From the sequence record PP658200.1: a stretch of DNA of 64,000 nt, one strand, 5' to 3'. This DNA is from Escherichia phage HY126. The notes beneath the pieces are model-generated. The model was not told where the DNA came from, searched no databases, and saw only the letters and a program-made list of their open reading frames with translations. Position 1 is the stretch's first letter, and each line of letters opens with the position of its first letter. Made by a program: the position numbers and the translations under genes. Shown one piece after another: positions 1,775 through 53,605 of this stretch.

Positions 1775-2674
1775 TTATTCCTCGATTACGACATCTTCAT
1801 ATTTAGGTATATTATACGGCGAAGAAATTAAAGCATTAAAGTAGATGAACTCGCCAAGACCTGGATGGAATACTTCTTCAGGATTTTCGAAATATTGAAT
1901 CTTCGGACGTCCTTTAAGAATTTGATAGTACTCAGTTTTAGTTGGTTTAAAAATTCGAATCAACGCTTCTTCAGGATACTTATTTCTGTCGAAGCTATTA
2001 TTTGGATCGGTTATATAAAGCGGTTGGCCTAATTGAATTGCACATTCAACCACTTGTTCAAAACGATAGCACGGGTCACTAATTCGAAATGGATGAAAAA
2101 TACCATCTAGATGAATAGGAGCCAAATCACCTACAAGACGCTGCATGATGGAAGGACGTATAACTTTCTGCGTTACGATAATCTTATTACCATCTGCACC
2201 TGCGTTAACCAGCACTTCTTTTTGACGTTCATTCAACACAGTAGTTTGAAGTGAACGATTAACCGACAACATATCAGTTTTTAAGAATTCGTCAATATAA
2301 AAACGTGGTTTATTAGGGTCTGCAGTGATATTGAAATTGAATTCCACATCAAAAGTGCCGGCATATCCGGTGATATCTGTGATTAGAAAATCACAATCAT
2401 AATAAGCAATTAATGAATCAACCACAAATTCATTTTCAGACCAGAAATATTTACGAGTGTTATACGCGTTATCTTTATACCATAATGGAACAAACTTAAA
2501 TTCTGGAAAAAGACGTTCGCATTCTTTAATATCAGATGCATTACGTGGATATGTAATCACATCACCCGGATTAGCACGGTGCAAATGAAGTTGGAAGTTG
2601 CCATCCTTAAGGATAGCATACTGTCCAGTTTCATAAGACCGCATACTCAAGATAGGTACGCGGAAAATAGCCAT
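1775..2674 (-). CDS. Hypothetical protein at the position T4 uses for beta-glucosyltransferase
   Basis: ORF track 299 aa; ATG overlaps gene 42 stop; no recognisable similarity to T4 beta-gt or alpha-gt. Confidence 0.6.
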   Translation of the reverse strand: MAIFRVPILSMRSYETGQYAILKDGNFQLHLHRANPGDVITYPRNASDIKECERLFPEFKFVPLWYKDNAYNTRKYFWSENEFVVDSLIAYYDCDFLITDITGYAGTFDVEFNFNITADPNKPRFYIDEFLKTDMLSVNRSLQTTVLNERQKEVLVNAGADGNKIIVTQKVIRPSIMQRLVGDLAPIHLDGIFHPFRISDPCYRFEQVVECAIQLGQPLYITDPNNSFDRNKYPEEALIRIFKPTKTEYYQILKGRPKIQYFENPEEVFHPGLGEFIYFNALISSPYNIPKYEDVVIEE

Positions 2675-3390
2675 TAGTCAAGGAATCCTTTAACATAATC
2701 AAAATCACGTTCAAACACATGGGCACTTACCATGGTATGAGTATAATCACCAACTTCTACACCACATTCGTTAGCGATATAATGAAGTAATTTTCCTTGG
2801 AGATAAAAATCCAACTGCATAACAACAGCACAGTTCTGAGAACGCATATGACAGTGGGTATAAAGCTTACCATCACGAATATAATAAGTCACTGAGTCAG
2901 TACATGGATATTCAAGCGTTTCGTCTGAATCAAGCAAAGCCTGATCGGAACTTTCTAGAATTTGGAACACAACTCTTCGGGAGTTAGGCTTCTCTTTAAG
3001 TTCTTTTAGAAGAGCTGGTAATTGGGCCGCAATGCGAGGACCATAGAAAGTGTTGAAGTTTGCAGGCAAAGCGTCTGATTTAGGTTTAGAAATAAATTTA
3101 GCGACGTTAGGATATGCCTTAAATGCTTCTTTTGCATCAGTACCACCAGAAATCATAAATTTCCAGAAATCTTCAGCATATTCATAAGAGATGCGATTAA
3201 TACGTGGGTCGGTCATTTTGAATGATGAAGGGGTATCAACAACTACTGTCATAGACCCAATTTCATTACAACGTCCAATACGAGAATCAGTAACGAACTG
3301 TGGATTTTCTAAAATTTCACGATTGACAGCTTTAAATGCGGATTGAAAATCTGCGGCTTTAATATATTTCATTGTGTTATGTTTTCCCAT
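2674..3390 (-). CDS. 42: dCMP hydroxymethylase
   Basis: ORF track 238 aa; thymidylate-synthase-fold signatures (NSRRVVFQILE, CTDSVTYYIRD, SAHVF) as in T4 gp42. Confidence 0.85.
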   Translation of the reverse strand: MGKHNTMKYIKAADFQSAFKAVNREILENPQFVTDSRIGRCNEIGSMTVVVDTPSSFKMTDPRINRISYEYAEDFWKFMISGGTDAKEAFKAYPNVAKFISKPKSDALPANFNTFYGPRIAAQLPALLKELKEKPNSRRVVFQILESSDQALLDSDETLEYPCTDSVTYYIRDGKLYTHCHMRSQNCAVVMQLDFYLQGKLLHYIANECGVEVGDYTHTMVSAHVFERDFDYVKGFLD

Positions 3391-51877: not shown

Positions 51878-51906
51878 AAAAAAGCCCCAACCTTTCGGAA
51901 GGGGCT
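51878..51906 (-). terminator. Rho-independent terminator (AGCCCC-loop-GGGGCU + U6)
   Basis: GC stem and six U on the minus-strand transcript, 3' of the ORF-free 51950..52200 region. Confidence 0.7.
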
Positions 51907-51949
51907 ATATACCTTGTCGGGGTTTCCACCTACTAAGGCAAGTGTTTGT

Positions 51950-52195
51950 ACGAAACGCCGGGATTCGAACCCGGTTATTAAGCAGTTGACGCTACTCAAT
52001 ATTTTTAAAAGGCCATATCTCGACCATATCCGAACGTTCCGTCAAAAACGCTACTCGGCTTACGGCAAAGATATTTCCTCGAATCGATAATTCTTTGCGC
52101 CGTTTCTGCTGTGATGTAAGGGGATATTAACAAATCATAAAGATTTATTAAGACCAGTCCTTACTCAGGGAACATCAGTCCGACGACTTGCCGGT
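51950..52195 (-). ncRNA. Candidate stable RNA with tRNA-like 3' end (T4 rnaC/rnaD-like position)
   Basis: ~250 nt without credible ORF; minus-strand 3' end CCGGGTTCGAATCCCGG-CGTTTCG mimics tRNA T-arm/acceptor but no full cloverleaf; several internal stems. Confidence 0.3.
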
Positions 52196-52209
52196 AGCGA
52201 CCCGGCTTC

Positions 52210-52554
52210 TTATTTTGACATATCATCAATTTGTTCTCTACGTCTACGCCATAGATTAATTACTTCATCAACACATTCAGCATTTGGTATATGACGACAA
52301 TAGTATAGTGATTCGCGTTTCTGGAACCGATGTTGTAATGGAATTTCGTTTAAAAGGTCTTTACGGTCAAAGTATTCAAAACTAGTTAACCCGGAACGGT
52401 TTTTAAGAAACTTCCAATGTCCGAATTCATTTTGAAAATAGACATAATCAGCATGCTGATACAGCGAATTAATTAACCTATCGGAAATAACTGTTTCACG
52501 TTCGTTAAAATAAAACGTTAAGTCATGAACTACCAGATAAATATTGCCTTTCAT
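52210..52554 (-). CDS. Hypothetical protein
   Basis: Track ORF trimmed to ATG 52554 with GAGG SD (MKGNIYLVVHDLTF...). Confidence 0.45.
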   Translation of the reverse strand: MKGNIYLVVHDLTFYFNERETVISDRLINSLYQHADYVYFQNEFGHWKFLKNRSGLTSFEYFDRKDLLNEIPLQHRFQKRESLYYCRHIPNAECVDEVINLWRRRREQIDDMSK

Positions 52555-52633
52555 ATTTTCCTCACTTAAAGTTGGTGCCTCTAGAAAGATTTGAACTCTC
52601 ACCATTAACCTTAGAACGATTATATGCTATCCA

Positions 52634-53299
52634 TTACACTATAGAGGCAATTAAATTATTTACAATATCTTCTTTATAAACTTCAGCATAATGAAGTTCA
52701 TATATTTCCCATCCTAATGATTTTATAATATCATGGCGTTCTTTATAATAAGGGGCCAAAATCTTTTTCTTAGGATTGGAGTAATGTTGGTTTCCATTAA
52801 CTTCAATAATAATCTTTTTATCTATTAAAGCAATATCCGTGCAATACGCTCGGTTTTTAACCGGTTGGTATTCTTCAATAAATGAAATTCCGTTTTCTAT
52901 TAATTTAGATTTCAAAAATTCACAAGGCACAGATTTAAATTTTGTATTTTTCTTCCAAGGATGTTTATCAGGGTTTTCATTCAACCATTTTTTCCGAGCA
53001 TTAGATATTTTTATTCTAGATTCCTCAGAGTGTTCTCTACCTAATGAAGCGGCTGACAATTTTTGTCTAGTCTCTTCCGAAATTACTACAGGGACACCAG
53101 TCTTTTTAGATACAACATACTGGTTTAAATTACCTGAAGCTATACGTGCTTTATTCATTGCTGCAATGGCTGATTTAGAACTTTCTTTATACAATTCCAA
53201 TTTAGGGTTGGATTTACACCATCTAGTGTGGTTAGCCATCCATCCTTTAGGTTTATTAGAAATATCAAATTCCATATTACAATGTTTACAAATGCTCAT
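52634..53299 (-). CDS. Freestanding homing-endonuclease-like protein (Zn finger + NUMOD-like repeats + DUF559/Vsr-like nuclease)
   Basis: CKHC...HTRWC; ISEETRQKLSAASLGREHSEESRIKISNARK; IIEVNGNQHY...ELHYAEV; start at ATG 53299 (track start is TTG 53305). Confidence 0.6.
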   Translation of the reverse strand: MSICKHCNMEFDISNKPKGWMANHTRWCKSNPKLELYKESSKSAIAAMNKARIASGNLNQYVVSKKTGVPVVISEETRQKLSAASLGREHSEESRIKISNARKKWLNENPDKHPWKKNTKFKSVPCEFLKSKLIENGISFIEEYQPVKNRAYCTDIALIDKKIIIEVNGNQHYSNPKKKILAPYYKERHDIIKSLGWEIYELHYAEVYKEDIVNNLIASIV

Positions 53300-53309
53300 T
53301 ACCAATTAT

Positions 53310-53328
53310 CTCCTATAAAATATAGGAG
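53310..53328 (-). promoter_or_regulatory. SD-sequestering hairpin upstream of the endonuclease-like gene
   Basis: CTCCTATA-ttt-TATAGGAG; 3' arm contains AGGAG 10 nt before the 53299 ATG. Confidence 0.4.
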
Positions 53329-53373
53329 TATTTATTATTTGGATAGAGCACTTAATTTACTTCGTTTAAATTA

Positions 53374-53445
53374 CTGGCGCACTTGGACTCGAACCAAGAT
53401 AAAGGAGTTAACAGCTCCCCGTAATAACCTTTATACGATGCACCA
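53374..53445 (-). tRNA. tRNA-Asn (anticodon GUU), CCA not encoded
   Basis: Hand-folded: acceptor TGGTGCA/TGCGCCA, D-arm with GG, anticodon stem GGGAG/CTCCT loop CTGTTAA, T-arm CTTGG-TTCGAGT-CCAAG. Confidence 0.8.
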
Positions 53446-53451
53446 TTTGTT

Positions 53452-53526
53452 TGGTGACCCTGGCTGGTTTCGATCCAGCTACCTATCAGTTATGAGCTGA
53501 CAGCTCTCCCATTGAGCTACAGGGCC
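53452..53526 (-). tRNA. tRNA with CAU anticodon (Met, or Ile if lysidine-modified), CCA encoded
   Basis: Hand-folded: acceptor GGCCCTG/CAGGGTC, D-arm GCTC-AATGGGA-GAGC, anticodon loop CTCATAA, T-arm GCTGG-ATCGAAA-CCAGC, 3' ACCA. Confidence 0.8.
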
Positions 53527-53605
53527 TAAATAACTTTCTATTATGAAAGGCACTTTAGAGCACCTTTGGTAATAGAGGGTATGAATTAATAATAACACAT
53601 AATTC

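What the first reader, a model, noticed from the sequence alone, without database searches (positions are those of the whole stretch)
52634..53328. Homing-endonuclease-like gene inserted beside the tRNA genes, with its ribosome-binding site locked in a hairpin
The 52634..53299 product combines an N-terminal Cys/His finger, NUMOD-like DNA-binding repeats and a C-terminal IIEVNGNQHY...ELHY block resembling the DUF559/Vsr-type nuclease fold. It sits immediately downstream of tRNA-Asn; T4 also carries a seg-type endonuclease in its tRNA cluster. Its SD lies in the 3' arm of an 8-bp perfect hairpin (53310..53328), the translational-silencing arrangement typical of phage homing endonuclease genes.
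Basis: partly seen in the sequence, partly recalled or inferred. Interest (0 to 1): 0.5.

Follow-up and report, generated by a model that had tools for sequence, protein, structure and literature searches.

The report
Mobile endonuclease gene fused to tRNA-Arg
A selfish DNA-cutting enzyme gene, carried together with two tRNA genes as an 874-base cassette, has recently been copied into this T4-like phage's tRNA cluster; it belongs to a large uncharacterised branch of a known endonuclease family that nearly always sits beside tRNA-Arg genes.

Summary

The homing interpretation is well supported by comparison, though not tested biochemically. JS09 and HX01 match the flanks at 99.9-100% but lack the gene. 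An 874-bp cassette (tRNA-Asn, 5'UTR, ORF, T4-type tRNA-Arg) replaces 75 bp holding a different tRNA-Arg(UCU). The cassette is 99.3-100% identical in six phages whose flanks are only 81-96% identical. About 1% of relatives carry it. Decay products exist: a chimeric tRNA-Arg, a frameshift and a deletion.

- The ORF's last 15 nt are the first 15 nt of tRNA-Arg.
- Eight homologues in other T4-like phages have an exact late-promoter core TATAAATA abutting the hairpin. Here it is AATAAATA.
- All 39 homologous loci lie in tRNA clusters, and 20 have tRNA-Arg(UCU) as immediate neighbour.

This is a new tRNA-Arg-linked subfamily of a known kind, and of moderate interest.

The parts
52577..53450 (-). 874-bp mobile cassette: spacer, tRNA-Asn, 5'UTR, endonuclease ORF and T4-type tRNA-Arg. 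It replaces 75 bp (spacer plus a different tRNA-Arg) of the JS09-type empty allele.
   Evidence: blastn against JS09: left flank identical to 53451, right flank identical from 52576. The cassette is 99.3-100% identical in ZQ3, Mizar, WFL6982, AV111, ELT1 and PTE-Eco05, whose flanks are 81-96% identical.
52634..53299 (-). Free-standing Vsr-like (EDxHD-superfamily) homing endonuclease gene, 221 aa. It has a CCHC finger (C5, C8, H26, C30), two NUMOD3-like helices (about 73-108) and a nuclease domain (about 104-221). Inferred active-site residues are E127, D155, E166, N168 and H172, possibly D190.
53310..53328 (-). Perfect 8-bp hairpin with a 3-nt loop. The SD AGGAG (53314-53310) lies in the 3' arm.
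   Evidence: P(SD unpaired) is 0.00 in read-through RNA.
53331..53338 (-). AATAAATA, a 7/8 match to the T4 late-promoter core TATAAATA, abutting the 5' arm of the hairpin. It is exact TATAAATA in all 8 homologous 5'UTRs examined.
   Evidence: The mechanism is from PMC2988022.
53285..53353 (-). Outer helix: upstream UAAGUGCUC pairs with GAGCAUUUG, which begins immediately 3' of the AUG. It encloses the late-promoter-like box and the SD hairpin.
   Evidence: The helix is also predicted in PSD2001, DCP548 and the Klebsiella homologues.
53374..53445 (-). tRNA-Asn(GUU), cargo at the 5' end of the cassette. It is absent from JS09-type relatives and 100% identical to tRNA-Asn of Salmonella phages SEA1 and STP4-a.
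52573..52648 (-). T4-type tRNA-Arg(UCU). Its first 15 nt encode the last four codons (ASIV) and the stop codon of the endonuclease. It replaces the bacterial-type tRNA-Arg(UCU) of HEG-less relatives.
53452..53526 (-). tRNA-Met(CAU), resident and not part of the cassette. It is 98.7-100% identical in the phages compared, and the left recombination crossover falls inside it.

Best explanation
[quoted passage not shown] It moves between co-infecting T4-like phages together with its neighbouring tRNA genes.

**Shown by comparison**
- An 874-bp block (tRNA-Asn, 5'UTR, ORF, T4-type tRNA-Arg) is present or absent among near-identical genomes.
- The block is nearly invariant across diverged backbones.
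- Here it replaces a 75-bp stretch holding a different tRNA-Arg(UCU).
- The crossovers lie within 77 nt on the left (inside tRNA-Met) and 41 nt on the right of the heterology.

**Inferred mechanism**
1. In a mixed infection the enzyme cuts or nicks the HEG-less allele, in or next to the resident bacterial-type tRNA-Arg(UCU) gene.
2. Exonucleolytic resection removes that gene.
3. Repair from the HEG+ genome copies the whole cassette. The phage loses its tRNA-Arg and gains the endonuclease-linked, presumably resistant, T4-type tRNA-Arg plus tRNA-Asn.

**Inferred expression control**
- On read-through early or middle tRNA-cluster transcripts the SD is buried in the hairpin.
- RNase P processing of tRNA-Arg would also cut off the last five codons (four sense codons and the stop).
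- A late promoter abutting the hairpin would start transcription inside the 5' arm and free the SD, restricting translation to late infection.
- In this cassette lineage the promoter core is AATAAATA rather than TATAAATA, so its strength is uncertain.
For: **Fold and motifs**
- Domain-level hhalign against I-Bth0305I gives E 1.1e-5, with a shared IEVNG strand. PCE127, TD155, EVN168G and H172 line up with E170, D196, N208 and H213 (residue roles from PMC3239194).
- These residues are invariant, or nearly so for E127, in 36 homologues.

**Modular DNA-binding parts typical of homing endonucleases**
- Zn finger and NUMOD3 here, HTH modules in homologues.

**Empty sites and spread**
- JS09 and HX01 match the flanks at 99.9-100%.
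- Only 9 of 813 related records cover the cassette. Only 33 of 50,697 phage records encode a homologue.
- The cassette is 99.3-100% identical against flanks of 81-96%. Conversion tracts are short.

**Independent second case**
- In Klebsiella Jiaodaviruses, 5 of 186 related records are HEG+. There tRNA-Leu', the HEG and a T4-type Arg replace a bacterial-type Arg and tRNA-Leu.

**Life-cycle relics**
- DCP548 has a chimeric tRNA-Arg whose crossover lies in the T-arm.
- PTE-Eco05 has a frameshift.
- AV114 has a deletion.

**Regulation**
- TATAAATA plus an SD hairpin is found in 8 of 8 other T4-like homologues.
- P(SD unpaired) is 0.00-0.16 in long RNA against 0.23-0.73 in late-start RNA, with Providencia as the exception.
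- The design is published for I-TevI/II/III, segB and mobE.

**Niche**
- All 39 of 39 homologous loci contain tRNA genes, at a median distance of 42 nt.
- tRNA-Arg(tct) is an immediate neighbour in 20 of 39 loci, although it makes up only 21 of the 248 tRNAs in those loci.
Against: - No cleavage assay, target site or cross data exist for any member of this subfamily.
- The fifth EDxHD residue (I-Bth0305I D222) has no secure equivalent. hhalign puts it opposite Y184, and D190 is conserved in only about 85% of homologues.
- Sequence searches against the PDB find nothing. The Pfam hits are marginal.
- A Vsr-type domain has one active site, so the enzyme may nick rather than make a double-strand break unless it dimerises.
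- The late-promoter core is imperfect in this cassette.
- The cassette/flank identity contrast proves horizontal transfer, not that this protein catalyses it.
- Loci in the tRNA census are partly non-independent, because there are several near-duplicates.
Confidence: 0.8

Rival explanations
1. It is a decayed or domesticated endonuclease gene. The ORF is carried passively, and the cassette spreads by ordinary homologous recombination, or by selection for its tRNA cargo, without any cut by this protein.
For: - tRNA genes can be anti-defence cargo under selection (PMC13096335).
- The late-promoter core is imperfect here.
- One copy is frameshifted.
- The fifth catalytic residue is uncertain.
Against: - The ORF is intact and 98.6-100% identical at the protein level in 8 of 9 cassette copies.
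- Candidate catalytic residues are invariant, or nearly so for E127, across 36 homologues. The family has at least 541 50%-identity clusters, which argues for purifying selection on the nuclease.
- Conversion tracts end within tens of nucleotides of the heterology, as expected for break-initiated repair.
Confidence: 0.1
2. It is an RNA-directed nuclease or RNA-binding protein (RAP-like) that acts on tRNA precursors or on tRNA-Arg transcripts, for example in processing or in anti-defence, rather than on DNA.
For: - The best Pfam score is to the RAP domain, E 4.3e-5.
- The family is strictly linked to tRNA genes, and the ORF overlaps tRNA-Arg.
Against: - The N-terminal modules (NUMOD3, HTH, zinc finger) are DNA-binding modules of homing endonucleases (PMC3239194).
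- The best structural match is a proven DNA homing endonuclease.
- About 1% occupancy among close relatives is not expected of a processing factor.
- Presence/absence alleles and cassette mobility fit a selfish DNA element.
Confidence: 0.05
3. The hairpin is a transcription terminator or processing signal for the upstream tRNAs rather than a translational silencer.
For: - The scan flags the inverted repeat as terminator-like, but only on the + strand, which is antisense to the genes.
- It lies just 3' of tRNA-Asn.
Against: - On the coding strand the stem is followed by AUAAUUGG, not a U-run.
- The 3' arm always contains the SD, while arm sequences differ among homologues.
- A late-promoter core always abuts the 5' arm.
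Confidence: 0.05

Closest known systems
I-Bth0305I and the Vsr-like 'EDxHD' homing endonuclease family (Dassa 2009, PMC2677866; Taylor 2011, PMC3239194; PDB 3R3P)
   Same: - The architecture is the same: N-terminal NUMOD/HTH-type DNA-binding region and C-terminal Vsr-like nuclease.
- Both share an IEVNG strand, and the E, D, N and H active-site positions line up.
- Free-standing members of that family also carry 5'UTR hairpins, in 15 of 16 cases.
   Different: - Sequence similarity is only about 22-23%. It is not detectable by phmmer or hmmsearch against the PDB.
- There is an extra invariant NPDKHPW...KF.S.PCE segment.
- The N168-H172 spacing is one residue shorter.
- The fifth acidic residue is not securely placed.
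- It uses a zinc finger and NUMOD3 rather than NUMOD2/HTH.
- It is free-standing in tRNA clusters rather than in a recA intron or a split intein.
T4 SegB (GIY-YIG free-standing homing endonuclease in the T4 tRNA cluster; PMC2330249)
   Same: - The genomic niche is the same: directly upstream of the T4-type tRNA-Arg, after another tRNA.
- The length is the same, 221 aa.
- The SD and AUG are sequestered in a hairpin.
- It mediates preferential inheritance of its own gene plus neighbouring tRNA genes, and exclusion of the rival phage's tRNA genes.
   Different: - The nuclease family is unrelated, with no sequence similarity.
- segB ends 5 nt before tRNA-Arg, whereas this ORF overlaps tRNA-Arg by 15 nt.
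- The SegB target is known (the T-psi-C motif GGTTCRANTCC). The target here is unknown.
Hef of phage U5 (Sandegren 2005), assigned to the Vsr-like family by Taylor 2011
   Same: It is a free-standing Vsr-like endonuclease in a T4-related phage.
   Different: - Hef lies at the nrdA/nrdB locus and targets nrdB.
- I could not obtain its sequence.
- None of the homologous loci I examined lies outside a tRNA cluster.
DUF559 / Vsr / RAP-domain PD-(D/E)XK-like nucleases
   Same: - There are marginal Pfam matches.
   Different: - DUF559 has E-x-D-G where this family has an invariant E-V-N-G.
- The Vsr zinc site is absent, and this is not a mismatch-repair context.
- RAP proteins act on RNA.

Membership tests
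Vsr-like / EDxHD homing endonucleases | C-terminal catalytic domain with the Vsr-like alpha/beta fold | tested here: met
   [not shown]
Vsr-like / EDxHD homing endonucleases | Composite active-site motif E, D, x, H, D (I-Bth0305I E170, D196, N208, H213, D222) | tested here: inconclusive
   hhalign (E 1.1e-5) aligns E127, D155, N168 and H172 to the first four positions. D155, N168 and H172 are invariant and E127 is nearly invariant in 36 homologues. D222 aligns to Y184. D190 is an alternative but is not invariant. No 3D superposition of side chains was possible.
Vsr-like / EDxHD homing endonucleases | Separate N-terminal NUMOD/HTH DNA-binding region | tested here: met
   NUMOD3 at residues 87-103, E 1.5e-3, just under the Pfam cut-off. 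Two helices at 75-85 and 92-108. Homologues carry HTH modules, including a KYGVSD.AI..W motif shared with I-Bth0305I.
Vsr-like / EDxHD homing endonucleases | Site-specific DNA cleavage of the HEG-less allele | not testable with these tools
   This needs purified protein and JS09-type tRNA-Met/tRNA-Arg DNA.
Free-standing phage homing endonuclease genes (intronless homing) | Sporadic presence, with empty-site alleles in close relatives | tested here: met
   9 of 813 related records cover the cassette. JS09 and HX01 flanks are 99.9-100% identical without it. In Klebsiella phages 5 of 186 related records carry the gene.
Free-standing phage homing endonuclease genes (intronless homing) | Element more conserved than its flanks across backbones, with co-conversion of adjacent markers | tested here: met
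   The cassette is 99.3-100% identical against flanks of 81-96%. tRNA-Asn and tRNA-Arg travel with the ORF. Crossovers lie within 77 nt and 41 nt of the heterology.
Free-standing phage homing endonuclease genes (intronless homing) | Endonuclease-dependent over-inheritance in mixed infection | not testable with these tools
   This requires phage crosses.
T-even hairpin plus late-promoter translational control (I-TevI type) | SD and/or AUG sequestered in a stem on read-through transcripts | tested here: met
   Perfect 8-bp stem over AGGAG. P(SD unpaired) is 0.00 and z is -3.2 to -3.4.
T-even hairpin plus late-promoter translational control (I-TevI type) | Late promoter TATAAATA placed so that late transcripts lack the 5' arm | tested here: inconclusive
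   Exact TATAAATA abuts the stem in 8 of 8 homologues, but the window has AATAAATA. With a start 6 nt downstream, modelled P(SD unpaired) rises to 0.60. No transcript mapping exists.
GIY-YIG Seg endonucleases (SegB) | GIY-YIG catalytic domain, or sequence similarity to SegB | tested here: not met
   BLASTP against T4 SegB gives nothing better than E = 2.1. There is no GIY-YIG Pfam hit.
DUF559 (PF04480) | Pfam score above the gathering threshold | tested here: met
   21.4 bits against a cut-off of 20.6, but over only 60 residues (profile positions 43-96). The match is marginal, and the family-wide EVNG differs from the DUF559 E.DG.

The most novel reading that the evidence does not exclude
This uncharacterised Vsr-like subfamily has at least 541 50%-identity clusters. 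It may be a dedicated 'tRNA-Arg replacement drive'. On this reading it recognises bacterial-type tRNA-Arg(UCU) genes in rival phages, destroys them, and installs its own physically fused, resistant T4-type tRNA-Arg plus whatever tRNA lies upstream. It would then be a major force reshuffling phage tRNA repertoires, and with them resistance to host anticodon nucleases. It would work across phage families from Straboviridae to Rhizobium Kleczkowskaviridae.
Probability: 0.25. Interest if true: 0.65.

Novelty: new variant of a known kind. Interest (0 to 1): 0.45.

Why it matters
The window appears to hold a very recent homing product. The backbone is JS09-like (99.9% in the flanks) and the cassette is 100% identical to that of phage ZQ3, so both donor and recipient alleles are known to the base. 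That makes the target site and the co-conversion tract directly testable.

The protein represents a large metagenomic family with no dedicated Pfam or NCBIfam model. Its members sit almost exclusively beside tRNA genes, above all tRNA-Arg(UCU). This points to tRNA genes as a general landing pad for a third nuclease class, after the GIY-YIG enzyme SegB and the HNH enzymes.

Phage tRNAs are now known to counter tRNA-cleaving defences, and SegB has been shown to amplify them. An element that swaps tRNA alleles between phages is therefore relevant to phage-host arms races and to engineering therapeutic T4-like phages.

The gene/tRNA overlap is also a neat case of an mRNA whose 3' end is destroyed by maturation of the neighbouring tRNA.

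Tried and rejected
- **PDB sequence searches.** Neither the protein nor the family profile found anything at E up to 10. Only the fold comparison was informative.
- **NCBIfam.** No hit.
- **Full-length hhalign against I-Bth0305I.** It aligned only an HTH motif. The nuclease domains aligned only after trimming.
- **SegB homology.** Rejected.
- **N168 as an inactivating D-to-N change in the DUF559 E.DG motif.** Rejected. EVNG is invariant family-wide, and I-Bth0305I also has Asn at this position.
- **Rfam.** The locus gave only the three tRNAs.
- **Terminator reading of the hairpin.** Rejected, because the U/T-run is on the antisense strand.
- **Hef paper (PMC1275590).** It is not held, so Hef could not be compared directly.
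- **Metagenomic homologue 5'UTRs (L007, L009, L014, L029) and the Rhizobium phage RHph_TM39 5'UTR (L038).** These showed no significant SD hairpin. The promoter/hairpin module is demonstrated only for T4-like phages.

Full report
**1. What is there**

All genes in this part of the window are on the minus strand. The window is a Mosigvirus, a JS09/RB69-like T-even phage. In transcript order the features are:
- tRNA-Met(CAU), 53526..53452.
- A 6-nt spacer.
- tRNA-Asn(GUU), 53445..53374.
- A 74-nt leader.
- A 221-codon ORF, ATG 53299 to TAA 52634.
- tRNA-Arg(UCU), 52648..52573.

ARAGORN and Rfam both call all three tRNAs, at 53.6-59.4 bits.

The last four sense codons (ASIV) and the stop codon of the ORF are the first 15 nt of tRNA-Arg.

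The hairpin is exactly as reported. CUCCUAUA (53328-53321), UUU, and UAUAGGAG (53317-53310) form a perfect stem, with AGGAG in the 3' arm 10 nt before the AUG. A second, outer helix pairs upstream UAAGUGCUC with GAGCAUUUG, which begins immediately 3' of the AUG. The leader folds at -16 to -20.5 kcal/mol, z -3.2 to -3.4.

**2. The protein**

Pfam gives only marginal hits:
- RAP, 23.9 bits against a cut-off of 24.2.
- DUF559, 21.4 bits against 20.6.
- NUMOD3, 18.9 bits against 20.4.

PHROGs gives families of unknown function and 'homing endonuclease' families. NCBIfam gives nothing. PDB sequence searches give nothing.

An alignment of 36 homologues shows an invariant or near-invariant core: NPDKHPW..(n)..KF.S.PCE..K...F.EE...D(I)....EVNGNQHY...L..YY..R(HD)...GW.....Y. 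The N- and C-terminal modules vary (CCHC finger, NUMOD3, HTH). This is the modular build of homing endonucleases.

I retrieved I-Bth0305I from phage 0305phi8-36. A domain-level hhalign gave E 1.1e-5. The two proteins share the strand IEVNG. PCE127, TD155, EVN168G and H172 fall opposite E170, D196, N208 and H213, which are the residues Taylor et al. define as catalytic (PMC3239194). So the Asn in EVNG is the family state, not a decay mutation. The fifth residue (D222) has no secure counterpart.

A profile search of 1.84 billion representatives finds 541 clusters at E<=1e-30 and 2052 at E<=1e-3. This is a large, unnamed subfamily.

**3. It is a mobile cassette**

JS09, HX01 and pEK20 match the flanks at 99.9-100% but lack about 800 bp. 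The breakpoints are exact. Identity to JS09 runs to 53451 on the left and resumes at 52576 on the right. The 874 bp from 53450 to 52577 replace 75 bp of JS09 that hold a 3-nt spacer and a tRNA-Arg(UCU) of quite different sequence. The JS09 version has a bacterial-type D-arm AGCUCAAUUGUAUAGAGC. The window version has the T4-type GUGUAAUGGAUAGCAU.

| Phage | Cassette identity to window | Flank identity to window |
|---|---|---|
| ZQ3 | 100% | 92-95% |
| Mizar | 99.7% | 92-96% |
| WFL6982 | 99.4% | 95-96% |
| AV111 | 99.3% | 93-95% |
| PTE-Eco05 | 99.4% | 93% |
| ELT1 | 99.4% | 81-82% |

With ZQ3 as the donor type, the left crossover lies inside tRNA-Met (53451-53528) and the right crossover within 41 nt (52577-52536). 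The window phage therefore looks like a JS09-type recipient that recently copied the cassette. The conversion tracts are short, as expected if a break occurred in or near the 75-bp heterology.

Only 9 of 813 related records contain the cassette. Only 33 of 50,697 phage records encode a homologue.

**4. Independent replicas and relics**

- Klebsiella Jiaodaviruses show the same event with other cargo. In 5 of 186 related records, tRNA-Leu', the leader, the ORF and a T4-type tRNA-Arg replace a bacterial-type tRNA-Arg, tRNA-Leu and about 100 nt. The breakpoints are clean.
- The 15-nt (24-nt in phi1_146055) overlap of ORF and tRNA-Arg is kept in PSD2001 (83% aa identity) and in the Klebsiella phages (60-64%).
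- DCP548 has tRNA-Met, the ORF and a chimeric tRNA-Arg. The 5' two-thirds are T4-type. The T-arm and 3' acceptor strand are the resident bacterial type. It no longer folds as a cloverleaf and ARAGORN does not call it. This is a conversion tract ending inside the resident tRNA-Arg. It places the initiating lesion upstream of that T-arm.
- PTE-Eco05 carries a frameshifted copy.
- AV114 has lost 53385..51971 through an 11-nt T-loop microhomology.
- Salmonella phage SEA1 has the identical tRNA-Asn followed directly by a bacterial-type tRNA-Arg, with no ORF.

Together these represent the invasion, fixation, decay and loss stages of the homing endonuclease life cycle.

**5. Regulation**

Eight homologous leaders have an exact T4 late-promoter core TATAAATA directly abutting the 5' arm of an SD-containing stem. 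They come from E. coli, Klebsiella, Providencia and Acinetobacter phages and one metagenomic T4-like contig. Their arm sequences differ, for example CUCCUAU/AUAGGAG, AUCUCU/GGAGAU and UCUAUAAA/UUUAUAGA.

I modelled two kinds of transcript. In read-through RNA, P(SD unpaired) is 0.00-0.16. In RNA starting 6 nt after the promoter it is 0.23-0.73. Folding energy falls from -17..-29 to -2..-6 kcal/mol. Providencia is the one exception.

This is the published I-TevI/segB/mobE design (PMC2988022; PMC2330249). 5'UTR hairpins were also reported for free-standing Vsr-like endonuclease genes (PMC2677866).

In the window's cassette lineage the box reads AATAAATA, a 7/8 match. Whether a late start still occurs is open.

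Because tRNA-Arg overlaps the ORF end, RNase P maturation of the tRNA would remove the stop codon from read-through mRNA. That would be a second likely brake. This is inference.

**6. Niche**

I examined 39 loci encoding homologues. They include Rhizobium Kleczkowskaviridae (28% identity) and 30 IMG/VR contigs.
- Every locus contains tRNA genes.
- The nearest tRNA is a median of 42 nt from the ORF, and within 300 nt in 35 of 39 loci.
- A tRNA-Arg is an immediate neighbour in 25 loci, and tRNA-Arg(UCU) in 20.
- tRNA-Arg(UCU) is only 21 of the 248 tRNAs in these loci. So 20 of the 21 copies abut the endonuclease gene.

Some loci are near-duplicates, so the counts overstate independence. Even so, the association spans several phage families.

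T4 segB is an unrelated GIY-YIG gene of the same length. It occupies the same slot upstream of the T4-type tRNA-Arg.

**7. Comparison with what is known, and novelty**

Four things are already known:
- Homing endonucleases in phage tRNA clusters: SegB, plus HNH genes in mycobacteriophages and cyanobacterial arrays.
- Vsr-like (EDxHD) homing endonucleases.
- A Vsr-like free-standing enzyme, Hef, in a T4 relative.
- The hairpin plus late-promoter switch.

I found no description of four things:
- This particular subfamily.
- Its near-exclusive linkage to tRNA-Arg(UCU) genes.
- The ORF/tRNA overlap.
- The allele-replacement pattern, in which a bacterial-type tRNA-Arg goes out and a T4-type tRNA-Arg comes in.

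The library is incomplete, so prior description cannot be excluded.

I rate it a new variant of a known kind and of moderate interest. The mechanism is conventional and untested biochemically. The donor and recipient alleles are defined to the base, so the target is immediately testable.

Noticed in passing
L037 (Escherichia phage DCP548) 2152-2227: A chimeric tRNA-Arg. The 5' two-thirds are the T4 type and the T-arm and 3' acceptor strand are the resident bacterial type. The acceptor stem cannot pair and ARAGORN does not call it. It appears to be a recombination scar that left the phage without a functional tRNA-Arg(UCU).
   Followed up: yes
L046 (Escherichia phage AV114) 1257-1267; window 53385 joined to 51971: A deletion of about 1.4 kb between the T-loop of the cassette-type tRNA-Asn and the T-loop of a downstream tRNA-like element, through an 11-nt microhomology GGTTCGAATCC. 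It removes the endonuclease gene, tRNA-Arg and the ORF150c homologue.
   Followed up: yes
L051 (phage PTE-Eco05) 2312-2984: The endonuclease ORF is split into 79-aa and 161-aa pieces by a frameshift in an A-run. This is either pseudogenisation or a homopolymer sequencing error.
   Followed up: partly
window 51880-52205 (-): A non-coding stretch downstream of the ORF150c homologue. It holds a tRNA-like T-arm (CCGGGTTCGAATCCCGG) and a terminator-like hairpin GCCCCTTCCGAAAGGTTGGGGCTTTTTT. The position corresponds to the small stable RNAs rnaC and rnaD that follow tRNA-Arg in T4. There is no Rfam match.
   Followed up: partly
L052 vs L003 (Klebsiella Jiaodaviruses): HEG-minus and HEG-plus alleles carry non-identical tRNA-Leu(UAA) genes and opposite gene order: Arg-Leu against Leu-HEG-Arg. 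The whole tRNA pair is exchanged with the element.
   Followed up: partly
L054 11249-12049 (I-Bth0305I) vs family members P0029, P0032, P0036: The HTH motif KYGVSDvAIqrW of I-Bth0305I recurs almost verbatim (YGVSDNAIRKWIK) at the C-terminus of some members of this subfamily. This suggests shuffling of DNA-binding modules between distant Vsr-like endonucleases.
   Followed up: no
L011 2509-2839 (IMG/VR contig 3300021165_004379): ARAGORN calls a tmRNA gene (tag AQQQKALIT*) inside a 19-gene phage tRNA array, next to a family member.
   Followed up: no
L044 502-1155: A second ORF (217 aa) with a faint NUMOD3 hit lies just upstream of the family member in a metagenomic T4-like contig. It may be a tandem endonuclease gene.
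   Followed up: no
L050 (phage ELT1) about 2621-3178: This more divergent backbone has about 550 bp of extra sequence between the ORF151c homologue and tRNA-Met that the window lacks. Its content was not examined.
   Followed up: no
window 52581-52597 (-): The T-arm of the window's tRNA-Arg (GAGAG UUCAAAU CUUUC) departs from the GGTTCRANTCC T-loop consensus kept by the PSD2001 and Klebsiella versions. SegB needs that consensus for cleavage. I did not examine whether this reflects immunity to T-loop-targeting endonucleases.
   Followed up: no
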